Assembly: GCA_963695345.1 (NCBI GenBank)
Contig: OY968769.1
Span: 704,001 to 768,000 of the forward strand
Source: an uncultured Methanomassiliicoccales archaeon
GTDB taxonomy: Archaea > Thermoplasmatota > Thermoplasmata > Methanomassiliicoccales > UBA472
DNA: 64,000 nt
Direction of reading: 5' to 3'
Position numbers and translations under genes: made by a program. The notes under the pieces are model-generated. The model saw only the letters and a list, made by a program, of their open reading frames with translations, had not been told where the DNA came from and made no database searches. Positions 19,596 to 59,103 of this stretch are shown here, piece by piece (the stretch's first letter is position 1; each line of letters opens with the position of its first letter).

Positions 19596-20234
19596 TCAAA
19601 TGGGAGCGGACCTAGCCGCAGCCAGCTCTTTCGTCATCGCCAGGCTCTGCTGCAGTATCTCGGGAGTGCCCAACCGGCATTCATGCCGGAGGTTAAGCTC
19701 AACGGCGAACTGTTTCGACAGCGCGATGTACTTCTCGATGTCCCCCAGCCCATCATCGATGAACAGGACCCTGGAGTAGCCGTCGAACATCTTCCGCATA
19801 TACCAGTCAAGAGAGATCCCCAGCTCCTCGAAGTTGGGCATCTGGACGCGCATCTTCTTCTCGAACCATTCCCGGTTCATCAGGGCGAAGTAGGGAGTGT
19901 GATACATCGTGCCTGCGCACTTCTTCCGCTCTGCCGCATACTCCTCCGGCGTGATCAGCACGCCGATGCAGTCGTCTCCCCTCAGCTGGATGGTGGGGAC
20001 GTTCAGCTGTTCGGTTATGTCTTTCAGCGAATTGCATATCCCGTAGCCGAGCAGGACCGCGTCCACCTTGCCCTCCAATGCGTTGACCTTCTCGATCACC
20101 GCCTTCTTCAGCATCTCCGGGAATTCATGGAGGCCGAACTCCAGATACTCCTTGTGGACTATGTCCGGGTCGTCCTTGATGAGCGGTTCGAGGTTCCTCT
20201 CGAACGTTTCGCATGAGATGATGCCTATCTTCAT
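19596..20234 (-). CDS. DUF1638-family protein
   Basis: IISCE, FGLHEFP, LLGYGIC, DDCIGVL, YSRVLFID motifs. Confidence 0.8.
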   Translation of the reverse strand: MKIGIISCETFERNLEPLIKDDPDIVHKEYLEFGLHEFPEMLKKAVIEKVNALEGKVDAVLLGYGICNSLKDITEQLNVPTIQLRGDDCIGVLITPEEYAAERKKCAGTMYHTPYFALMNREWFEKKMRVQMPNFEELGISLDWYMRKMFDGYSRVLFIDDGLGDIEKYIALSKQFAVELNLRHECRLGTPEILQQSLAMTKELAAARSAPI

Positions 20235-20327: not shown

Positions 20328-21053
20328 ATGCAGGGTGACGATATAAGGGAACAGATCGAGGCGCTCCGCCAAGAGGTCCGCGGATTGAGCACGTCCATCC
20401 TCAACCTCCGTCAGGATGACATGCGCAAGGTCTTCGGAGACCAGATAAGACCGGTGCTTATGGAGCGGATCGAACGGCATTATCGGACCGATGATGGCGT
20501 TTCGACCGACGATGGCGGGACCAGCAAGGAAACGCTGTCCGACCTGGTGGACCGGACCATCTCCATCTTCCAGGGCGAGGGAAGGCGGAAGGCACTATCG
20601 TTCCTATCCGACCATGAAAGCGCCAACGATCTGTCCGGAGAAGATCCGGGAAAGGTATTCGAGGGACAATTGGTCACCCAGCTGAAGGAGTACTTGCTAA
20701 TGTCCGACCACGTCTTCAACCAGCAGGTGCCGGAAGTTCCCAGCCATTCCTCCAATAATGCTTTCGACCAGCGCCTGTCGCCGGAAGACGCGGAAAGGCT
20801 GATGGCACCACTGTCTAACTCCAGGAGGGTTCGGGTAATGCTGATCCTTTCCCGGGAGGCGAACAGCCTGGCAGAGCTCAGCAAGGAGCTGGACCTGAAA
20901 AAGGGACACCTGCAGTTCCATCTCAAGGCACTGATGGACGTGGACTATATCCGTTTCGACCGGAAGAGCCGGCTCTATTCCATCTCTTCCCGGGGGACCC
21001 GTGTGCTGGACGGAGTTACGAAGCTCATCGAGGACCTGTCCGGCGACCAGTGA
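20328..21053 (+). CDS. Transcription regulator with C-terminal ArsR-like winged HTH
   Basis: PLSNSRRVRVMLIL...SLAELSKELDLKKGHLQFHLKAL...YSISSRG; N-terminal coiled coil. Confidence 0.85.
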   Translation: MQGDDIREQIEALRQEVRGLSTSILNLRQDDMRKVFGDQIRPVLMERIERHYRTDDGVSTDDGGTSKETLSDLVDRTISIFQGEGRRKALSFLSDHESANDLSGEDPGKVFEGQLVTQLKEYLLMSDHVFNQQVPEVPSHSSNNAFDQRLSPEDAERLMAPLSNSRRVRVMLILSREANSLAELSKELDLKKGHLQFHLKALMDVDYIRFDRKSRLYSISSRGTRVLDGVTKLIEDLSGDQ

Positions 21054-48979: not shown

Positions 48980-49291
48980 TCACCTCGTTCTTTTCACCCC
49001 GAAGTCCCTATTGTATTTGTCCAGCATGCTCGCCACTTTCATCGAGGCGGATTGGCCGCCGGCACCCAGTGGAGAACTGCTGATCGGGAATTCAAAATCG
49101 CAACGTGGACATCTAACGTTGGCGCACCCTTTGATCGCATGAGGACACCCTGCACAGGCAAATGTGCGAGCATAGAGGAGACTGAACTTGTTGTTGCATT
49201 TGGGGCAGGATAGTACCTCTGCCGTCGCCCTTCTAAGTCTCGGGTCAATGCCTAATTCGTTCTGCTGACCGATCATATCGTTCGCCTTCAT
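48980..49291 (-). CDS. Small Cys-rich (Zn or Fe-S binding) protein
   Basis: CPKC...CAGCP....C....CPRCDFEF (7 Cys); start at ATG 49291 or 49276. Confidence 0.75.
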   Translation of the reverse strand: MKANDMIGQQNELGIDPRLRRATAEVLSCPKCNNKFSLLYARTFACAGCPHAIKGCANVRCPRCDFEFPISSSPLGAGGQSASMKVASMLDKYNRDFGVKRTR

Positions 49292-49307
49292 TTCACTATA
49301 ACAACGA

Positions 49308-49382: not shown

Positions 49383-50480
49383 CTAGCGCGGCTTTCTCTC
49401 CTGCCATTCCTTAGTCTCGGCATAATCGCGGGTCGCCTTGACCATGGCAAACAGGTTCGCCGCTGGCGTGGAGACAGGCAGTTCGCATCCCGGGCCGACA
49501 ATGTACCCGTGCTCGCATTTCGTAGCCGCAACGTCCAGATGGTCCCTGGTCGTCTTATACACCTCATCATAGGTGTTGATCATGAACTTAGCTGGCTCGA
49601 TGTTGCCCACGATCATTGTGGACTTCCCGAAGATGTCGATGACCTTCGGTAACGGCGTCCGGTAGTCGAAGTTGATGGCGAACGAACCTGGCACTTTGGC
49701 CCACAATTTCGCATTGTCGGTCTGGTTCCCGCAGGGGTGGCAGAGGAAACCGGCAGGAGCTCCTGCCTTCAAGGCACCCTCCCTAACCTTGATCAGCGAC
49801 GGCAACGCGAACTGCTCGAATTGCTTGTCGCTGATCAGATCGTTCGAGTCCGTCGGACCTCCATCAAAGAACATTATCGGGCCGACCGTGGACAGTATGT
49901 ACTTGACCTCATTGATGAGGAACTCTGACACGCTGTTTAGAACCTTATGCACCAGATCCGGTTTCTTCAGCATCCAGATGAGCATCGTCTCCACGCCGAT
50001 GATGTTCCCGGCGTTCGAGAAGGCGTCACCGGCCTGGACGGTGGGGTTCTTGTAGCCCTCGGGATAAGTTTCGAGAACATACCTGGCTCCACGACACCAA
50101 TCTTCGATCTCTCCCGCCGTGGCGGGGTCTGGGGTCTGCATCTTGTCGACTGCGTCCGGCGTTTCGATCGGGTGCCGCACGATGAGCGGGCTCTGAGCCC
50201 TCGAATCAGCTCCAGGGTAAGAGAGTTCTCCCCCGTATTCGGCAGCTCCGGCGCAAGCGTGGCCGAACAACGGCCCGGTGTCGAATCCGTAAAGCTCCTG
50301 GACCGGAAGGAACGCTTTGGCGAACTTAACCGGATCCTTGTAGCATTCACCGATGGTCAATCCCTTGTGCTGCTTGGATACGAAACCCATGGCGAATGCC
50401 CCGGCCCCCGGACGGTCTGCCCATCCGGTCTGGAAGAGCGACATCATCCTCTCGATGGGGGTCATAGTTTCCTTGAACAT
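49383..50480 (-). CDS. MtaA/MtbA/MtsA-like methyltransferase (URO-D fold), paralog 2
   Basis: MTPIER start, Zn motif HPCG...PGCE, IVGNIEP, ANLFAMV; ATG 50480 lies 2 bp after the corrinoid gene stop. Confidence 0.9.
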   Translation of the reverse strand: MFKETMTPIERMMSLFQTGWADRPGAGAFAMGFVSKQHKGLTIGECYKDPVKFAKAFLPVQELYGFDTGPLFGHACAGAAEYGGELSYPGADSRAQSPLIVRHPIETPDAVDKMQTPDPATAGEIEDWCRGARYVLETYPEGYKNPTVQAGDAFSNAGNIIGVETMLIWMLKKPDLVHKVLNSVSEFLINEVKYILSTVGPIMFFDGGPTDSNDLISDKQFEQFALPSLIKVREGALKAGAPAGFLCHPCGNQTDNAKLWAKVPGSFAINFDYRTPLPKVIDIFGKSTMIVGNIEPAKFMINTYDEVYKTTRDHLDVAATKCEHGYIVGPGCELPVSTPAANLFAMVKATRDYAETKEWQERKPR

Positions 50481-50481
50481 T

Positions 50482-51138
50482 TCAAGCACCTCCGAACAGC
50501 TTGTTGATCTCGGTGACAGCGACCTCGCCATTGTCAGCGGTGGTATCAGCACCGATCTGTTTGGCGAATTCCTTGTTAATCGGTGCACCTCCGATCGCCA
50601 CCTTGAACTGGTCACGGACTCCGCGGGACTTCATCAGGTTGATCGCGTCCGTCATGCCGGCCATCGTTGCCGTCATTAGAGTGCTCATTCCGATCAGGTC
50701 CGCCTTCTCCGCCTGTGCGGTGTCTACGATCTTCGAGATCAACACGTCCGCACCCAGGTCATGAACATCGTATCCGCCGACACCCAATAGGGTGGCCACT
50801 ATGCCCTTTCCTATCGAATGGACGTCGCCTTCGACGGTGCATATGACCACCTTGCGGGCCTTTGCGCCCGATGTCTCTTTCTTGAGGTGCGGTTTCAATA
50901 TGGCCAAGGCAGCGTTCATGGCGGCCGAGGCGGCCATCACCTGTGGTAGATAGTACACCTTCTGCTCGTACAGGACGCCTACCTCCTTCATCCCTTCGCT
51001 CAACCCGTGCAGAATCGCCGTCTTAGGGTCGTAACCGTCATCCAAGACCTTTTGGGCGGTCTTTGCGGCCACAACTTCATCGAAGTCGATGACGCTCTGC
51101 TTAAGCTCTTTCAATAGCTCAGATTCTTGTGTCTTCAT
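50482..51138 (-). CDS. Corrinoid (B12-binding) methyl-carrier protein, MtaC/MtbC/MtsB-like
   Basis: Cap domain GLSEGMKEVGVLYE..YYLPQV; DxHxxG motif EGDVHSIGK; DLG, MSTLMT, IGGAP. Confidence 0.93.
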   Translation of the reverse strand: MKTQESELLKELKQSVIDFDEVVAAKTAQKVLDDGYDPKTAILHGLSEGMKEVGVLYEQKVYYLPQVMAASAAMNAALAILKPHLKKETSGAKARKVVICTVEGDVHSIGKGIVATLLGVGGYDVHDLGADVLISKIVDTAQAEKADLIGMSTLMTATMAGMTDAINLMKSRGVRDQFKVAIGGAPINKEFAKQIGADTTADNGEVAVTEINKLFGGA

Positions 51139-51154
51139 TTTTTCACCTATCCAT

Positions 51155-51766
51155 TCAGCTCTTTTTTAACAAGATTGGACACACTTGTTTCCTTGCGCAT
51201 CCGTTGATCACCGAAGCAACGCTAAGGTAGAATGCCAGAACTCCCACGATCACCGCGAGCACGCCAATGGCGGACAGTAGAGTCGCATCGGTGGTCAGCG
51301 CATGAATGCCGACCATCATGAACATCACCGACGCCAGCCCGATTATGATGGTCAGCAGGCGGACCGGGAAGAACGTGGTAATTATGGCCAGCATGGCCAC
51401 GAACAATGCGAAAGATATCATGAAGGTTGCGAACTCCGCTGATGTCGGCGGACTGACCAAGCCTGTGGCGGGCAGGATGTTGAGCGCCACGAACGACCAG
51501 GCGAAAACCATTATCATTCCGAACGCAAAAAGCCCGAACTCGTTCCCCTTCTTCCAGGAGGTCAGGGCCACGATCAGAAACCCGAACCCGCAGAAGAACA
51601 CCACAGACAGGACCATGCCGCTGACCGGGTAGTAGTTCAATGAGGCGAAGGCGAACACTATGGTCAGCCACCCCAACAATGCCGATCCCAACGACAGCGA
51701 ATCCGCTGACGTATCAGTTATTTCGAATTTCCGTTCATCCGCTACGCTAATGCTTGCATTTTCCAT
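51155..51766 (-). CDS. GPR1/FUN34/YaaH (SatP/AceTr) family small-carboxylate channel-like protein
   Basis: 6 TM, ADSLSLG (variant of the NPAPLGL signature), WKKGNEFG, AFYLSVASVIN....V.P. Confidence 0.72.
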   Translation of the reverse strand: MENASISVADERKFEITDTSADSLSLGSALLGWLTIVFAFASLNYYPVSGMVLSVVFFCGFGFLIVALTSWKKGNEFGLFAFGMIMVFAWSFVALNILPATGLVSPPTSAEFATFMISFALFVAMLAIITTFFPVRLLTIIIGLASVMFMMVGIHALTTDATLLSAIGVLAVIVGVLAFYLSVASVINGCARKQVCPILLKKS

Positions 51767-51801
51767 TTTCCTTTCCTCCTAGTTCTACGACTTACCACTA
51801 A

Positions 51802-52899
51802 TTATTTTCTGCAGTGGTCTTTCCATTCTGGCGATTCGGCATAGTCCCTTGTCGCCTGGACCATCGCGAAGAGATTGGCTGGCGGGACCGAGGATGGCAT
51901 TTCGCATCCCGGTCCGACCGCGTATCCTCGATTGCATTTGGTTGCAGCCAAATGTAGGAATTCCTTTGTTGTGGAATAGATTGAGTCGAAATTCTGAGAG
52001 ACAAACGAGCACGGTTCGATGCTGCCCATGACGGTCGAATCATTGTGGAACTCCTCCACCACCCTATTGATAGGCGTCCGATAGTCGAAATTGATATACC
52101 TGATGTCCTTCAGCTCTTTCCATAATTTGATGTTCCGGGTCTGATCGCCACACGGGTGGGAATTGATCCCGATCGCTCCGTGCTTCATCGCGCCAGTGTG
52201 GTATTCCCTGAGATATGGCAGTACAAAATACTCGAACTGTTTCGCACTTATGAAATCATTCGACTCGGCAAGGCCTCCTTCGAACAGGACCATTGGTTCA
52301 AGCGTCTCCACCAAATACTTCGCGTAGTCGATTTGGAATTCGACCACCTTGTTCAGCAATTTGTATACGAGATCGGGGCTCTTGATCATCCAGGTGAGAA
52401 CGGTCTCCATTCCCACGATGTTGACCACCCAGGTGAACGGCGTCCCCACAACGACGGACGGGCTCCGGTACCCATCTGGATATTCCTTGAATACATGGCG
52501 GCAGGCCTCGACGATCTTCGGGACCTCACCGACGGTGCTCGGGTCCGGGACGGCCACTCGGTCCACATCCTCGGGAAGATTGATGGCGTGGTTGACGATG
52601 AAAGGAGAACAGGCCTTGGACCTTTTACCGGGATAGGCCAAGGTTCCCCCGAACTCGGCGTTACCAGCGCATGCATGTCCAAATAGCGGACCTGAGTCGA
52701 ATCCGAAGAGCTGCCAGATGGGCAGGTATGCCTTGGCGAAGGAGAGCGGGTTGGCATAACCCTCCCCCACGGTCAGTCCATGGGTCATTCTAGGGACCAT
52801 CCCCATCGCGAACGCAGATATGCCGGGCCTGTCCGCACACCCCGTTTCATAGAGCGAGTTCATCCTCTCCATGGGGGTCATGGTCTCTAGGAAGGACAT
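51802..52899 (-). CDS. MtaA/MtbA/MtsA-like methyltransferase (URO-D fold), paralog 1
   Basis: MTPMER, HPCG...PGCE Zn motif; colinear with the paralog at 49383-50480 (shared LFGHACAG, NFDYRTP, ATRDYAE). Confidence 0.9.
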   Translation of the reverse strand: MSFLETMTPMERMNSLYETGCADRPGISAFAMGMVPRMTHGLTVGEGYANPLSFAKAYLPIWQLFGFDSGPLFGHACAGNAEFGGTLAYPGKRSKACSPFIVNHAINLPEDVDRVAVPDPSTVGEVPKIVEACRHVFKEYPDGYRSPSVVVGTPFTWVVNIVGMETVLTWMIKSPDLVYKLLNKVVEFQIDYAKYLVETLEPMVLFEGGLAESNDFISAKQFEYFVLPYLREYHTGAMKHGAIGINSHPCGDQTRNIKLWKELKDIRYINFDYRTPINRVVEEFHNDSTVMGSIEPCSFVSQNFDSIYSTTKEFLHLAATKCNRGYAVGPGCEMPSSVPPANLFAMVQATRDYAESPEWKDHCRK

Positions 52900-52927
52900 C
52901 GCGTCACCTCTTCTCTCTTCATAGTCA

Positions 52928-52945
52928 CAAATACCTCCGTATTTG
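52928..52945. promoter_or_regulatory. Inverted repeat CAAATAC-N4-GTATTTG, candidate operator
   Basis: Perfect 7-bp arms 29 bp upstream of the methyltransferase start. Confidence 0.55.
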
Positions 52946-53049
52946 CGATATAATGATTATGACCCAGAATGGGGCTTAAGGGCTCTTTCGTCGAAACTTG
53001 AGAGCACGGCCTCATAGCGTTGTCATTGATCATTCGGACGGAGGTCTGA

Positions 53050-53080
53050 TATTTCATTTGAAATACAAACGTAATACAAA
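53050..53080. promoter_or_regulatory. Inverted repeat TATTTCA-TT-TGAAATA plus AATACAAA direct repeats upstream of the RHH gene
   Basis: Palindrome at 53050-53065; AATACAAA at 53062 and 53073 (11-bp spacing). Confidence 0.5.
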
Positions 53081-53115
53081 TGATATATATCTTTCTCCTA
53101 CCTTTGGGGGAGCAG

Positions 53116-53403
53116 ATGACAATAAACGAGAAGAAACGAAGGGGTGAAACCCAGATCGTTAATCTCCGGATGCCCTATGGACTCGTGGCCGAGATTGAGA
53201 ACATCGTGGATCGGAGAATGTTCAAATCACGATCGGATTTCATCATAGCCGCGGTTCGTCACTACATCGATTATATGTCCTACGATGAGATCACTGGCAA
53301 CAAGGGTCGTGAAGAGATATTGAAGAGGATGTATCTCCAAGGCCAGCTGAAGGGATCGAGCATACCTATTCCTGAGGATAACGGGCAAGATGAAAAAGAG
53401 TAG
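53116..53403 (+). CDS. Ribbon-helix-helix (CopG/Arc/MetJ-like) regulator
   Basis: QIVNLRMP..LVAEIENIVDRRMFKSRSDFIIAAVRHY; GGGGGAG precedes ATG 53116; divergent from the methyltransferase operon. Confidence 0.88.
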   Translation: MTINEKKRRGETQIVNLRMPYGLVAEIENIVDRRMFKSRSDFIIAAVRHYIDYMSYDEITGNKGREEILKRMYLQGQLKGSSIPIPEDNGQDEKE

Positions 53404-57477: not shown

Positions 57478-59103
57478 ATGAGTGTCGTAGAGGAAATTAG
57501 AAGTGAGGTTCGAACAATAGCATCAGATAGGAATCTGAATGACGATCGAGCTTTCGGTTATTGGTTCCTTGAGGGGTTTGAGGATTTTAGTCCAGAAGAG
57601 GCGGAGTCTTGCATTGTTGATGGTCCCTGGGATGGGGGAAGAGATGCAGTATTTTTCGATGAAGATGAGTCTATTTTGAAAATATACCAGTTTAAATTCT
57701 CCAATTCTATTGATTATGTAAAAAAAGCATTTGCCGATATTCAAAAGGCTCTAATAAATGAAAAAGACAACGCGTCTCGTGCAAAGCAGGTACAGTTGAT
57801 CGTAGTATCATTGGTTGATTCAAATCAGGATATTCTAAGAATCGAGAGATCAGCAAGAACTCGAGCGAGAAAATGGATCAAGAAGCAAAATCTTGCTACT
57901 GAAATCGATCTGAAACACTATGATTTGAATGAATTCAAAAAAATGCTAGATAGAATTCAAGGAGTGAACCTTTCTATCAGTTTTAAATCCAAACCAGTTA
58001 TCGACGGAAGAGATCTGATCGGACTAATTAATGCAAATGAGCTTAGAGAACACATAAATGATGATAATATTCTTGCTTTTAACATAAGAAAATTCCTTGG
58101 ACTCAGAAAGGGATCAGTAAATTATCAGATTAGGCAGACTCTCGAGAATGAAGATCTCAGACCAAAATTTTGGAATCTGAATAATGGAATCGTTACACTG
58201 TGCACAAATGGTAGAGAAGAGAGTTCATCAGAAAATAAATGGAAATTTGAAAACTTTACAATAGTAAATGGGGCTCAAACAATCAACACTATTTCAAGAT
58301 TCCTCGATGATTCACCAACATTAAGAGACGATCCAATTTGGGTAGTGGCCAAAGTCATTGTAGTCGACGATACTAATATTGAAGAAGCTCTCATATTAAC
58401 CAAAACATCTAACAGTCAAACAGCGACAAACGATAAGGATCTAAGAGCAGTAGATCCGACACATAAAACACTGAAGAGATGGTTTGATCAATACTATTCT
58501 TTCAAATACTTAACAAGAAGAGGAGAAAAAGTAAAAAGAGACACTCCATCGATAACAATGAAGGATTTGGCACAGTCATATGTTGCGTTCTCTATGGATA
58601 TGCCAAATGTTTCATTTTCACAACCAGGAAAGATATTCGAACATGCGAATTTTTATTCCGTTGTGTTCCCTGACTCTGTCATATCTATTCTCGACAAAAC
58701 AGGAGGAGAGGACAAGCAGAGAAATTTCATTCTCCAGAGATTAGTACCAACATTATTACTATGGAAGATACGCCCCTATGTTAAACAAAAAGCACAAGAT
58801 TCTAATGATCTTAAGTGGAAATCTGTTTCTTATCATATCTTGTGGTTATATGGATGTATGTTCAAAGAAATGAAGATTGAAGATTGGAAGAAGATACATT
58901 CTAATCTGGATTTTATCTTTGCTTCTACTATTGAATTATTCTATGAATATCTTCATAACATGACAGAATTCAACCCATCTATTGAAATTCCTAGAGATCT
59001 TAAAAACACCAAGATTATGGAAGAGATAAAAAGGAGCAAGATCTTTGAGAAACCTGGATTCAAATCGATAATTATAAAAATTGATTCAATAAATAAGGAA
59101 TGA
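57478..59103 (+). CDS. AIPR (abortive infection phage resistance) family protein
   Basis: N-terminal DGPWDGGRDAV...YQFK; NIRKFLG, FWNLNNGI, IVNGAQT, SNSQT...DL; markedly AT-rich relative to the host genes. Confidence 0.88.
   Translation: MSVVEEIRSEVRTIASDRNLNDDRAFGYWFLEGFEDFSPEEAESCIVDGPWDGGRDAVFFDEDESILKIYQFKFSNSIDYVKKAFADIQKALINEKDNASRAKQVQLIVVSLVDSNQDILRIERSARTRARKWIKKQNLATEIDLKHYDLNEFKKMLDRIQGVNLSISFKSKPVIDGRDLIGLINANELREHINDDNILAFNIRKFLGLRKGSVNYQIRQTLENEDLRPKFWNLNNGIVTLCTNGREESSSENKWKFENFTIVNGAQTINTISRFLDDSPTLRDDPIWVVAKVIVVDDTNIEEALILTKTSNSQTATNDKDLRAVDPTHKTLKRWFDQYYSFKYLTRRGEKVKRDTPSITMKDLAQSYVAFSMDMPNVSFSQPGKIFEHANFYSVVFPDSVISILDKTGGEDKQRNFILQRLVPTLLLWKIRPYVKQKAQDSNDLKWKSVSYHILWLYGCMFKEMKIEDWKKIHSNLDFIFASTIELFYEYLHNMTEFNPSIEIPRDLKNTKIMEEIKRSKIFEKPGFKSIIIKIDSINKE

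What the first reader, a model, noticed from the sequence alone, without database searches (positions are those of the whole stretch)
49383..53403. Methyl-transfer module for an unknown substrate: two URO-D methyltransferases + corrinoid protein + SatP-type channel, no MT1
Seen: operon MT-A1, channel, corrinoid, MT-A2. Both enzymes keep the H-x-C...C Zn motif but are clearly diverged, and no MtaB/MtmB/MtbB/MttB/MtoB gene lies in the window. Known: in Methanosarcina, the MtsA/MtsB and MtpA/MtpC systems use a URO-D enzyme alone for methyl-sulfur substrates, and SatP/AceTr proteins conduct small carboxylates. Inference: a pathway for a small methylated (thio)carboxylate such as methylmercaptopropionate, methylthioacetate or methoxyacetate, with one paralog loading the corrinoid and the other methylating CoM. 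This could be a new methanogenic substrate.
Basis: partly seen in the sequence, partly recalled or inferred. Interest (0 to 1): 0.78.

Follow-up and report, generated by a model that had tools for sequence, protein, structure and literature searches.

The report
Uncharted methyl-transfer operon with anion channel
A methane-producing archaeon carries a conserved, unstudied gene set (two zinc methyltransferases, a vitamin-B12 carrier protein, a small anion channel and a regulator) that probably lets it make methane from a methylated sulfur compound not yet tested in this group.

Summary
On the minus strand lie A1 (URO-D, 51802-52899), an AceTr/SatP-type channel (51155-51766), a corrinoid protein (50482-51138) and A2 (URO-D, 49383-50480), 1-35 nt apart, with a divergent RHH regulator (53080-53403). 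The genome is a Methanomassiliicoccales methanogen. All its classical MT1 genes and two MtaA-type MT2 genes lie outside the window.

A1 and A2 are 54% identical, keep His-x-Cys...Cys, fall far below the MtaA/MtbA cut-offs and sit in a clade apart from MtaA, MtbA and an MtpA-like enzyme. The module (regulator, carrier, two paralogs, channel) recurs in 5 of 201 genomes of the order, including one whose proteins equal M. luminyensis records. Those accessions are missing from that organism's published methyltransferase table.

The channel has the SatP fold. It lacks the NPAPLGL motif and has Leu/Ile/Ala where SatP has the Phe/Tyr/Leu constriction.

Best reading (0.45): a dedicated system that takes the methyl group from an anionic methyl-sulfur compound, such as methylmercaptopropionate. 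The split "one loads, one methylates CoM" is unproven. The two paralogs barely differ, a one-paralog variant exists, two genomes add a third MtaA-like gene, and a symmetric dimer is predicted. Methoxy substrates look less likely. This is a new variant of a known kind, testable in culture.

The parts
53080..53403 (+). Ribbon-helix-helix (CopG-type) regulator, transcribed away from the operon. The likely true start is the ATG at 53116.
   Evidence: Pfam RHH_1 E 6.7e-4, 20.0 bits, just under the 20.5 cut-off. tblastn finds it beside the module in all 4 other genomes at 42-49% identity and in contig L113. Similarity begins at residue 23. Sequence read.
51802..52899 (-). A1: URO-D-family corrinoid methyltransferase with a His-x-Cys...Cys zinc site. 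First gene of the operon.
   Evidence: Pfam URO-D 144 bits. It scores below every MtaA/MtbA/CmuA cut-off. H248/C250/C332 are kept. The model has pLDDT 95.8 and best matches MtaA 4ay7 at TM 0.80/0.86. It forms its own subclade with two metagenome proteins.
51155..51766 (-). AceTr/SatP-fold six-helix anion channel with an altered signature motif and constriction.
   Evidence: AceTr_1 69.8 bits (cut-off 50) and PF01184 30.7 bits. Its model matches SatP at TM 0.80-0.91, rmsd 1.7-1.8 A. L31/I85/A145 stand where SatP has F17/Y72/L131. Orthologs lie in the module of all 4 other genomes.
50482..51138 (-). Corrinoid (B12) carrier protein of the methyltransferase-cognate type, with a D-x-H-x-x-G cobalt-ligand motif.
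   Evidence: B12-binding 80.8 and B12-binding_2 72.8 bits. TIGR02370 scores 199.5 bits, under its 215.3 cut-off. The translation reads GDVHSIG. Orthologs are 53-59% identical in the 4 other genomes.
49383..50480 (-). A2: URO-D-family corrinoid methyltransferase of the 'a' type, the paralog that follows the carrier gene in every genome.
   Evidence: Pfam URO-D 139 bits. Below the MtaA/MtbA cut-offs. Groups with the carrier-adjacent paralogs of the other genomes. His-Cys-Cys is kept.
48980..49300 (-). Small zinc-ribbon protein 82 nt downstream of A2. Whether it belongs to the module is doubtful.
   Evidence: Zn_ribbon_4 26.9 bits, under the cut-off. A 37%-identical paralog lies next to another diverged URO-D gene of the genome. 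It was not found in the 4 other module loci.

Best explanation
The five genes form a self-contained, regulated corrinoid methyl-transfer module of an H2-dependent methyl-reducing methanogen. A small anionic methyl-sulfur compound enters through the AceTr-type channel. The leading candidate is 3-methylmercaptopropionate or a similar methylthio-carboxylate. The thiol product can leave by the same channel.

A zinc (His-Cys-Cys) URO-D enzyme binds the thioether sulfur and passes the methyl group to the Co(I) corrinoid protein. The methyl group then goes to coenzyme M and is reduced to methane. The carrier-adjacent 'a' paralog (A2) with the carrier is the conserved core and most likely the substrate-specific MT1.

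The second paralog (A1 or 'b' type) is either the CoM-methylating partner or a second substrate-side enzyme. It probably pairs with A2 in a UroD-like dimer. Where a third, MtaA-like gene follows the operon, or through the genome's two MtaA-type enzymes, the CoM step may be done by those instead.

Shown here: gene content, conservation, family placement, zinc ligands and channel fold. Inferred: substrate, direction of transfer, and the roles of A1 and A2.
For: The organism is a methanogen with a full set of methyl-reducing genes elsewhere: McrA, MtaB x2, MttB, MtmB x2 and MtbB, four RACo/RamA-type activases and two MtaA-type MT2s.

The operon is tight, with gaps of 1-35 nt. The module recurs in 5 of 201 genomes of the order, always with two paralogs about 0.9 kb apart. 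Carrier, channel and RHH are present in all 4 other genomes.

A1 and A2 are outside the MtaA/MtbA group. His-Cys-Cys is kept in both. The literature links this triad to S/Se-methyl transfer (PMC10418091, Results).

The precedent is MtpA: a URO-D enzyme specific for methylmercaptopropionate that needs a second methyltransferase for CoM (10.1101/548461, abstract).

The channel has the SatP fold, with Ala at the position where L131A widens SatP's range to larger acids (PMC8379382, passages).

The ESM Atlas's nearest cluster is auto-named 'Methylated-thiol--coenzyme M methyltransferase', score 0.95. This is a lead only.

The A1+A2 complex model scores 0.85 against 0.00 for the best of 3 controls. 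That mark was reached by 116 of 157 solved complexes and 2 of 215 mismatched pairs. The runs agree in at least 94% of contacts and the partner's pLDDT is 92.
Against: No substrate, expression or activity data exist for any member.

The channel subfamily also occurs alone. The same genome has a 45%-identical copy with no methyltransferase gene nearby. Of 10 metagenome loci, 7 show no URO-D or carrier gene in the DNA held, although 3 of those are under 3.4 kb and 4 are near-identical.

SatP L131A still takes acetate, so plain acetate uptake is not excluded.

The a and b types differ at only 1-2 fixed positions, so nothing marks one as MT1 and the other as MT2.

The dimer interface is symmetric, and UroD and CdmB homodimers are solved. 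The complex pass may therefore reflect family likeness and cannot tell heterodimer from homodimers.

The clade is not close to the MtpA-like enzyme (AU p 0.00015). Any methylmercaptopropionate specificity would have arisen independently.

M. alvi has MtsAB homologs yet does not use dimethylsulfide (PMC10673518, passages). URO-D plus carrier pairs in this order therefore need not act on the expected sulfur compounds.
Confidence: 0.45

Rival explanations
1. The module handles volatile methyl sulfides or selenides (dimethylsulfide, methanethiol, dimethylselenide). The two paralogs remove the two methyl groups in turn, as proposed for SdmB and SdmC of Methanococcus voltae. The channel is either unrelated or lets the HS-/HSe- product out.
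For: Two URO-D genes plus one carrier is the Sdm / mlp-cluster layout, and the His-Cys-Cys site fits S or Se (PMC10418091, Results). Both paralogs look alike at the active site. A third, MtaA-like gene that could do the CoM step follows the operon in 2 of the 4 other genomes. A clade joining the module enzymes with the fused carrier-methyltransferases is not rejected (AU p 0.215). I take those fused enzymes to be the MtsD/F/H kind.
Against: Volatile sulfides cross membranes unaided, so a conserved channel gene has no obvious task. No AceTr member is known to me to carry HS- (recalled). No reductive activase gene lies in the cluster, although type 1 mlp clusters are defined by one. That paper lists only Methanococcales among methanogens with such clusters. 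M. alvi did not use dimethylsulfide (PMC10673518).
Confidence: 0.17
2. The module does not feed methanogenesis. It may detoxify or scavenge a methylated metalloid or chalcogen, such as dimethylarsinate. Or it may run the other way and methylate a thiol carboxylate for export.
For: The closest relatives at 30-33% identity are bacterial URO-D-carrier-URO-D sets in Dehalococcoidia, Chloroflexia and Syntrophorhabdus. These have no coenzyme M and sit beside molybdopterin oxidoreductases. Methanomassiliicoccus-dominated cultures demethylate dimethylarsenate by an unknown enzyme (PMC10579292, passages). Dimethylarsinate is a small anion. The patchy spread, 5 of 201 genomes, suits an accessory function.
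Against: No arsenic or selenium gene lies near the module in any of the 5 genomes. The host's energy metabolism is methyl reduction, and the carrier is of the methanogenic cognate type. There is no direct evidence of any kind.
Confidence: 0.13
3. The substrate is an O-methyl compound (methoxyacetate or a methoxylated aromatic acid), as in the Mto/Mtv/Odm O-demethylases.
For: O-demethylase MT1s belong to the same UroD superfamily (PMC13222342, passages). The bacterial relatives lie next to pyrogallol-hydroxytransferase-like molybdoenzymes, a CoA ligase and an MFS transporter, which hints at aromatic acid breakdown. The channel family carries carboxylates.
Against: O-methyltransferases of the superfamily replace one or both zinc cysteines (PMC10418091, Results), whereas both paralogs keep His-Cys-Cys. 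The family profile matches MtaA over its full length (62.6 bits). It matches CdmB, the solved relative of MtoB, only over the C-terminal third (43.4 bits).
Confidence: 0.08
4. Both enzymes are ordinary MT2 isoenzymes serving MT1s encoded elsewhere, and the channel is simply an acetate importer for carbon assimilation that happens to sit in the operon.
For: The genome has 2 MtaB, 2 MtmB, MtbB and MttB. NCBI names the M. luminyensis channel 'acetate uptake transporter', and an AMP-forming acyl-CoA ligase gene lies 3 kb upstream there.
Against: Two enzymes above the MtaA/CmuA subfamily cut-off already exist. A1 and A2 score 56-89 bits against cut-offs of 235-600 and lie outside the MtaA/MtbA clade. 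The operon has its own carrier and no MT1 within 200 kb. The linkage of channel, carrier and URO-D survives a gene-order change between families.
Confidence: 0.07

Closest known systems
MtpA/MtpC (methylmercaptopropionate system of Methanosarcina acetivorans)
   Same: A URO-D-family zinc enzyme sits next to its own corrinoid protein. MtpA acts as a substrate-specific MT1 for a methylthio-carboxylate and needs a second methyltransferase for CoM (10.1101/548461, abstract). A transporter gene belongs to the cluster (recalled).
   Different: The module enzymes do not group with the MtpA-like enzyme of genome G525 (AU p 0.00015). I labelled that enzyme by its upstream carrier gene only. Here there are two paralogs, and the transporter is an AceTr channel, not the MFS type (recalled).
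MtsA/MtsB methylthiol:CoM methyltransferase of Methanosarcina barkeri
   Same: A URO-D enzyme plus carrier acts on methyl sulfides with no MtaB-type MT1. The thioether substrate resembles the product methyl-CoM (10.1101/548461, Introduction passages).
   Different: MtsA alone does both half-reactions, whereas this module has two paralogs, a channel and a regulator. I held no MtsA sequence, so kinship was not tested. The split URO-D plus carrier pair at 149.9-151.6 kb of this genome is the likelier MtsAB-type pair.
SdmABC of Methanococcus voltae and type 1 mlp gene clusters
   Same: Several MtaA-like URO-D genes stand with one carrier and no MtaB-type MT1. They have His-Cys-Cys sites and a proposed methyl-S/Se role (PMC10418091, Results).
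   Different: Those clusters carry a Ram/RACE activase gene and no channel. Among methanogens the paper reports them in Methanococcales only.
MtaA, methylcobamide:CoM methyltransferase (PDB 4ay7/4ay8)
   Same: Best structural match (TM 0.80/0.86) and best sequence match among solved structures (62.6 bits with the family profile). Same zinc ligands.
   Different: Only 20% identity. Far below the NCBIfam cut-offs. Separate clade. Motifs read HPCG(D/N)Q and PGCE(M/L/I)P instead of H(V/I/M)CG..(T/V/A) and PGCG.
SatP / AceTr acetate-succinate channels (PDB 5zug, 5ys3)
   Same: Six-helix fold, TM 0.80-0.91. Passes the AceTr_1 and PF01184 cut-offs.
   Different: 22-25% identity. The NPAPLGL(M/S) signature reads (S/T)A(S/D)(P/S)(D/E/L)(A/S)LG(S/A). 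The F17/Y72/L131 constriction is L/I/A in all 6 aligned members. The gene is embedded in a methyltransferase operon.
MtoABCD / MtvABC / Odm O-demethylases and CdmBCA
   Same: Three-component corrinoid systems whose MT1 is a UroD-superfamily protein (PMC13222342, passages).
   Different: Their MT1s lack the Cys-Cys zinc site or lack zinc altogether. Their second methyltransferase is pterin-dependent. The family profile matches CdmB only partially.

Membership tests
MtaA/MtbA/CmuA methylcobamide:CoM methyltransferases (NF040654, NF041608, TIGR01463, NF004889) | Score above the curated NCBIfam cut-off | tested here: not met
   A1 scores 62-81 bits and A2 56-89 bits against cut-offs of 235-600. 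As controls, the genome's U1 and U2 reach 261-370 bits and the MtaA and MtbA of G525 reach 420-635 bits.
MtaA/MtbA/CmuA methylcobamide:CoM methyltransferases | Placement inside the clade that holds MtaA and MtbA | tested here: not met
   A1 and A2 lie in a 17-row clade (support 100) on the other side of a split supported 98 in FastTree (102 rows) and 81 in IQ-TREE quick (49 rows).
UroD-superfamily S-methyltransferases | URO-D TIM-barrel fold with His-x-Cys...Cys zinc ligands | tested here: met
   Pfam URO-D. Model pLDDT 95.8 with MtaA as best match. H248/C250/C332 are invariant in 13 of 13 and present in A1, A2 and all 15 other module-clade rows. Zinc binding itself was not tested.
MtpA/MtpC | One clade with MtpA | tested here: not met
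   Forcing the module clade together with the MtpA-like enzyme costs 77.5 lnL, p-AU 0.00015. Caveats: the group was named after the tree was seen, and the MtpA label rests on context.
MtsD/F/H fused corrinoid-methyltransferases | Carrier domain and URO-D domain in one polypeptide | tested here: not met
   The two are separate genes. Kinship of the URO-D part is unresolved: AU p 0.215, and the fused enzymes sit on a long branch.
MtsA/MtsB (M. barkeri) | Sequence kinship with MtsA, and one enzyme doing both half-reactions | not tested
   No MtsA sequence could be fetched by name, and no NCBIfam model for it answered. Activity cannot be tested with these tools.
UroD-superfamily O-demethylase / haloalkane MT1 (MtoB, MtvB, OdmB, VdmB, CdmB) | Zinc cysteines replaced by carboxylates or lost, and closer to CdmB/MtoB than to MtaA | tested here: not met
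   Both cysteines are kept. CdmB 9rui scores 43.4 bits over profile positions 210-348 only, against 62.6 bits over positions 6-352 for MtaA.
Type 1 mlp gene cluster / Sdm | Mlp2 and Mlp3 genes with a carrier and a Ram/RACE activase gene in one cluster | tested here: inconclusive
   No RACo-family gene lies in the window. The four in the genome are at 507, 850, 1851 and 2360 kb. Membership of the URO-D genes in the Mlp clades could not be tested because no Mlp sequences were held.
AceTr (GPR1/FUN34/YaaH, SatP) | Family profile cut-offs and six-helix SatP fold | tested here: met
   AceTr_1 69.8 bits (cut-off 50) and PF01184 30.7 bits (cut-off 25). Foldseek TM 0.80-0.91 to 5ys3 and 5zug. The channel model has pLDDT 75.3 from a 6-row alignment.
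AceTr (GPR1/FUN34/YaaH, SatP) | NPAPLGL(M/S) signature motif and the F-Y-L constriction (PMC8379382) | tested here: not met
   The motif region reads SADSLSLGS here and TASP(D/E)ALG(S/A) in the 5 relatives. My hand count on the HMMER alignment puts L31, I85 and A145 opposite SatP F17, Y72 and L131. These three are invariant in 6 of 6. The alignment around Y72 is the least certain.
Methyltransferase-cognate corrinoid proteins (TIGR02370) | B12-binding and cap domains, the D-x-H-x-x-G motif, and the family cut-off | tested here: inconclusive
   Both Pfam domains are over their cut-offs and GDVHSIG is present. TIGR02370 scores 199.5 bits, under its 215.3 cut-off.

The most novel reading that the evidence does not exclude
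The module is the entry point for a methanogenic substrate that is on no methanogen's list yet. The substrate would be a small anionic methyl-S, methyl-Se or methyl-As compound, for example methylthioacetate, 4-methylthiobutyrate-type methionine breakdown products or dimethylarsinate. It would enter through a naturally wide-pored AceTr channel and be demethylated by a heterodimer of two sister URO-D enzymes working on one corrinoid carrier. In the arsenic variant this would be the missing enzyme behind dimethylarsenate demethylation by Methanomassiliicoccus.
Probability: 0.22. Interest if true: 0.8.

Novelty: new variant of a known kind. Interest (0 to 1): 0.62.

Why it matters
Methanomassiliicoccales make methane in guts, wetlands, rice soils and digesters. 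They do so by reducing methyl compounds with hydrogen. The compounds they are known to use are methanol, the methylamines and, from gene content only, methyl sulfides.

This is a conserved, regulated methyl-transfer module with its own carrier and its own channel. Its enzymes come from a branch of the URO-D family in which I found no studied member. It therefore points to a substrate that current methane budgets and genome annotations miss.

Proteins identical to M. luminyensis records are encoded by the same module. The idea can therefore be tested in a culture that already exists. The module would also be, as far as my searches show, the first case of an AceTr channel dedicated to a methanogenic methyl substrate.

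Tried and rejected
- RNA evidence: no RNA holder was listed for the operon.
- Names for relatives: two word-index searches and three cluster look-ups gave only 'uroporphyrinogen decarboxylase family protein' labels. One was called MtbA in Ca. Methanohalarchaeum. No characterised member turned up.
- Literature: the five accessions searched for the four M. luminyensis proteins of the module (two of them guessed older numbers) occur in no held paper. The four searched there are also absent from the supplements of Borrel 2014. That paper's Table S10 lists other mtsA/mtsB/mtxC genes.
- I guessed that the Methanosarcina-type orphan was mtaA2. This was wrong: mtaA2 is MA1615, next to mtaB3. Fu & Metcalf 2015 is not held, so the locus tags for MtpA and MtsD/F/H are recalled.
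- I looked for residues that tell the a type from the b type. Only positions 338 and 145 qualify, so MT1 and MT2 roles cannot be assigned.
- I asked whether the channel subfamily is always linked to methyltransferases. It is not: 3 of 10 metagenome loci are linked, and the genome has its own stand-alone paralog.
- I rejected a recently acquired island. GC of the operon region is 0.50-0.55 against 0.56 for the genome, which is not distinctive. An AIPR gene in a 0.42-0.45 GC patch does lie 4.6 kb away.
- The sigma-70 promoter scan was not run, because archaeal promoters are not covered.

Full report
**What is there**

The region holds four co-directional genes on the minus strand:
- A1, 51802-52899, 365 aa;
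- a 203-aa membrane protein, 51155-51766;
- a 218-aa corrinoid protein, 50482-51138;
- A2, whose ORF runs 49383-50615. Its ATG at 50480 gives a 365-aa protein colinear with A1.

The gaps are 35, 16 and 1 nt. A 107-aa gene is transcribed the other way at 53080-53403, and a 106-aa zinc-ribbon ORF follows A2 at 48980-49300.

Pfam calls both large proteins URO-D (144 and 139 bits). The membrane protein is GPR1/FUN34/YaaH (30.7 bits, cut-off 25). The carrier has B12-binding and B12-binding_2 domains. The divergent gene is a weak RHH_1 match.

NCBIfam gives AceTr_1 69.8 bits (cut-off 50) for the channel. For A1 and A2 it gives only 56-89 bits against the MtaA, MtbA and MtaA/CmuA models, whose cut-offs are 235-600. 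A1 and A2 are 54% identical.

**The host**

The window is 704-768 kb of a 2.56-Mb single-contig genome with GC 0.56. The genome encodes:
- McrA;
- two MtaB;
- MttB, two MtmB and MtbB, each read through one TAG;
- four RACo/RamA-type activases;
- 16 B12-binding matches;
- eight URO-D matches, which make seven genes.

Two of the URO-D genes (U1 at 2358 kb, U2 at 2187 kb) pass the MtaA/CmuA subfamily cut-offs. A1, A2 and three others do not.

Its order contains a genome (G051) whose proteins are letter-for-letter NCBI records of Methanomassiliicoccus luminyensis. The host is therefore a member of the Methanomassiliicoccales, the H2-dependent methyl-reducing methanogens.

No MtaB, MttB, MtmB or MtbB match falls in the window. 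Pfam scans of 35 of the 40 window ORFs picked found none. The five ORFs left out have 82-243 aa.

**Conservation**

I searched 201 genomes of the order with A1. Matches of 47% identity or more occur in 5 of them: the window's genome and four of the 24 sampled genomes of another family (G051, G029, G037, G078). Each has two copies about 0.9 kb apart. None of the 7 other sampled genomes of the window's own genus has one; their best matches are about 27% identical.

In the four other genomes the order is carrier, URO-D 'a', channel, URO-D 'b'. In G037 and G078 a third URO-D gene follows. tblastn finds the following in all four:
- the channel, 43-49% identical;
- the carrier, 53-59%;
- the RHH gene, 42-49%, always divergent from the carrier.

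The window has a different order: A1, channel, carrier, A2. The linkage has thus survived a rearrangement.

Ca. Methanohalarchaeum thermophilum has one homolog (44%) directly followed by a carrier (41%) and no channel.

A metagenome scan with the channel gave 10 loci:
- L112 has channel, carrier and an A2-type gene (86%). No second URO-D lies in the 1.2 kb upstream or 3.2 kb downstream.
- L113 has RHH, carrier, a, channel and the start of another URO-D.
- L121 has channel and URO-D.
- Seven loci show no methyltransferase gene in the DNA held. Four of these are near-identical and three are 1.1-3.4 kb long.

The window's genome also has a stand-alone channel paralog at 338 kb, 45% identical. The conserved core is therefore the 'a' enzyme plus the carrier. 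Channel, second paralog and regulator usually travel with it.

**Family placement of the enzymes**

A profile of 13 family members searched against 1.84 billion representative proteins found only two further clusters above 450 bits. Below that came a continuum from 328 bits downward. Against solved structures the profile matches MtaA 4ay7 over its full length (62.6 bits), CdmB only over its last third (43.4 bits), then true UroD. The AlphaFold model of A1 has pLDDT 95.8 and is closest to MtaA, TM 0.80/0.86 at 20% identity.

For labelled references I took the URO-D genes of a 5.75-Mb genome (G525). I take its genus to be Methanosarcina. NCBIfam marks seven of its URO-D genes as MtaA (420-520 bits) and one as MtbA (635 bits). 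One gene scores below the cut-offs and has a carrier gene directly upstream; I call it MtpA-like by context. Three are fused to a carrier domain; I take these to be MtsD/F/H-like (locus tags recalled).

In a FastTree of 102 rows and an IQ-TREE quick tree of 49 rows, the module enzymes plus the Methanohalarchaeum protein form a clade with support 100. It has three subclades:
- A1 with two metagenome proteins;
- the 'b' genes;
- the 'a' genes, including A2.

The order of the three is unresolved.

This clade lies in a large group with no named member in my look-ups. That group includes a stand-alone gene found in 12 of 41 genomes of the G525 genus, which in G525 lies beside a RACo gene. It also includes the bacterial URO-D-carrier-URO-D sets of Dehalococcoidia, Chloroflexia and Syntrophorhabdus, next to molybdopterin oxidoreductases.

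A split supported 98 in FastTree and 81 in IQ-TREE separates this group from MtaA, MtbA, the MtpA-like and the fused enzymes, U1 and U2. The third 'c' gene of G037 and G078 also falls on that other side.

An AU test rejects the module clade joined with the MtpA-like enzyme (lnL difference 77.5, p 0.00015). It does not reject the clade joined with the fused enzymes (p 0.215). Both groupings were named after the tree was seen, and the fused enzymes sit on a long branch.

I held no MtsA, Sdm, Mlp or Mto sequence, so those comparisons are open.

**Active site**

H248, C250 and C332 are invariant in 13 of 13. They are present in A1, A2 and every other row of the module clade.

Kountz and Balskus (PMC10418091, Results read) state that His-Cys-Cys is the zinc sphere of the S-methyltransferases of this superfamily. 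O-methyltransferases replace one or both cysteines. The solved haloalkane MT1 CdmB has no zinc (PMC13222342, passages).

This favours a sulfur (or selenium) substrate over a methoxy one. It also shows that the superfamily contains MT1 enzymes. The absence of an MtaB-type gene therefore does not mean 'no MT1'.

The motif after the last cysteine (GCE-x-P) is shared with the fused enzymes. MtaA and MtbA have GCG.

The ESM Atlas's nearest cluster is auto-named methylated-thiol--coenzyme M methyltransferase, score 0.95. This is a lead only.

**The channel**

Its model (pLDDT 75.3, six-row alignment) overlays SatP at TM 0.80-0.91 and rmsd 1.7-1.8 A.

The family's NPAPLGL(M/S) signature is not kept. 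The three residues that form SatP's central constriction (F17, Y72, L131; PMC8379382, passages) align with L31, I85 and A145. I counted this by hand on the HMMER alignment. All three are invariant in the six aligned members.

In SatP the single change L131A keeps acetate uptake and raises uptake of lactate and succinate (same paper). A naturally wider pore for a larger anion is therefore plausible. It is not shown, and acetate is not excluded.

**Roles of the two paralogs**

I found nothing that assigns the roles:
- Only positions 338 and 145 separate the a type from the b type.
- L112 manages with the a type alone.
- Methanohalarchaeum has one enzyme.
- In two genomes a third gene follows that sits with MtaA and MtbA in the tree (support 98). 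It is the more natural MT2.

A complex prediction of A1 with A2 scored 0.85, against 0.00 for the best of three controls. That mark was reached by 116 of 157 solved complexes and 2 of 215 mismatched pairs. The runs agree in at least 94% of contacts and the partner's pLDDT is 92.

The interface uses the same residues on both chains (37-41, 56-64, 300-304, 339-348). It is a two-fold dimer of the kind solved for UroD and CdmB. The pass may come from that likeness and cannot tell a heterodimer from two homodimers.

**What is in print**

Borrel et al. 2014 list mta, mtm, mtb, mtt, mts and 'mtx' genes of M. luminyensis in their Table S10. The accessions searched for the module are not in their supplements and occur in no held paper.

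The description of M. alvi reports MtsAB homologs but no use of dimethylsulfide. It suggests other methylated thiols (PMC10673518, passages). The MXMAG1 paper lists 'MtsAB' for the MAG that I match to G078 (PMC7824343, passages). I did not see which genes were meant.

Chen et al. 2023 show dimethylarsenate demethylation in Methanomassiliicoccus-dominated cultures and name no enzyme (PMC10579292, passages).

My searches found no study of this module. That is a statement about these searches only.

**Verdict**

The module has five genes, is conserved in a patchy set of Methanomassiliicoccales, and is built from a URO-D clade apart from MtaA, MtbA and the MtpA-like enzyme.

The most likely function is entry of an anionic methyl-sulfur compound into methyl-CoM (confidence 0.45). 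Methylmercaptopropionate-like acids are the leading candidates. The rivals are:
- volatile sulfides or selenides (0.17);
- a role outside methanogenesis, including methylated arsenic (0.13);
- methoxy compounds (0.08);
- ordinary MT2 enzymes plus an acetate importer (0.07).

It is a new variant of a known kind of system and can be tested in an existing culture.

Noticed in passing
window 19596-20234 (-) and 20328-21053 (+): A DUF1638 protein (110.7 bits) sits back to back with a 241-aa protein that ends in an ArsR-type HTH. I recall DUF1638 genes near corrinoid methyltransferase genes in Methanosarcina. This pair is 30 kb from the operon.
   Followed up: no
window 23783-48362 (-): Four very large genes in a row (1462, 1077, 2407 and 2802 aa), made of Ig-like, Big_7/Big_13 and beta-helix repeats. 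They are presumably surface proteins. Their GC is 0.61-0.64 against 0.56 for the genome.
   Followed up: partly
window 57478-59103 (+): An AIPR (abortive-infection-type) protein, 131.6 bits, lies in a patch of GC 0.42-0.45, 4.6 kb from the operon. It looks like foreign DNA.
   Followed up: no
G000:C1:149912-151645 (L006): A URO-D gene is split into two overlapping ORFs (194 and 219 aa), directly after a corrinoid protein gene. It is probably a frameshifted MtsAB-type pair.
   Followed up: partly
G000:C1:492592-493981 and 498197-498628: The dimethylamine methyltransferase match comes in pieces: profile positions 1-396 with one TAG, then 392-463 after a TGA. A separate C-terminal fragment lies 4 kb on. 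The gene may be frameshifted.
   Followed up: no
G000:C1:1835299-1835577, next to U7 (1833653-1834771): The small zinc-ribbon protein downstream of A2 has a 37%-identical paralog beside another diverged URO-D gene of the same genome.
   Followed up: no
G201 (genome of locus L027): Ca. Methanohalarchaeum thermophilum has 14 URO-D matches over the Pfam cut-off, four of them clustered at 269-281 kb.
   Followed up: no
L028, L030, L031, L032: Dehalococcoidia, Chloroflexia and Syntrophorhabdus carry URO-D, corrinoid protein and URO-D sets with His-Cys-Cys sites. These sit beside molybdopterin oxidoreductases (one pyrogallol-hydroxytransferase-like), and in Syntrophorhabdus also beside a CoA ligase, an MFS transporter and FmdE. 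Their methyl acceptor is unknown, since these bacteria have no coenzyme M.
   Followed up: partly
L092/L105 (G525:C1:987389-988456) and 11 further genomes of that genus: A stand-alone URO-D gene scoring 171-282 bits to the module's profile occurs in 12 of 41 sampled genomes. It keeps His-Cys-Cys in the three copies aligned. In G525 it lies beside a RACo/RamA-type gene. Its cluster includes Methanimicrococcus proteins. My look-ups found no functional name for it.
   Followed up: partly
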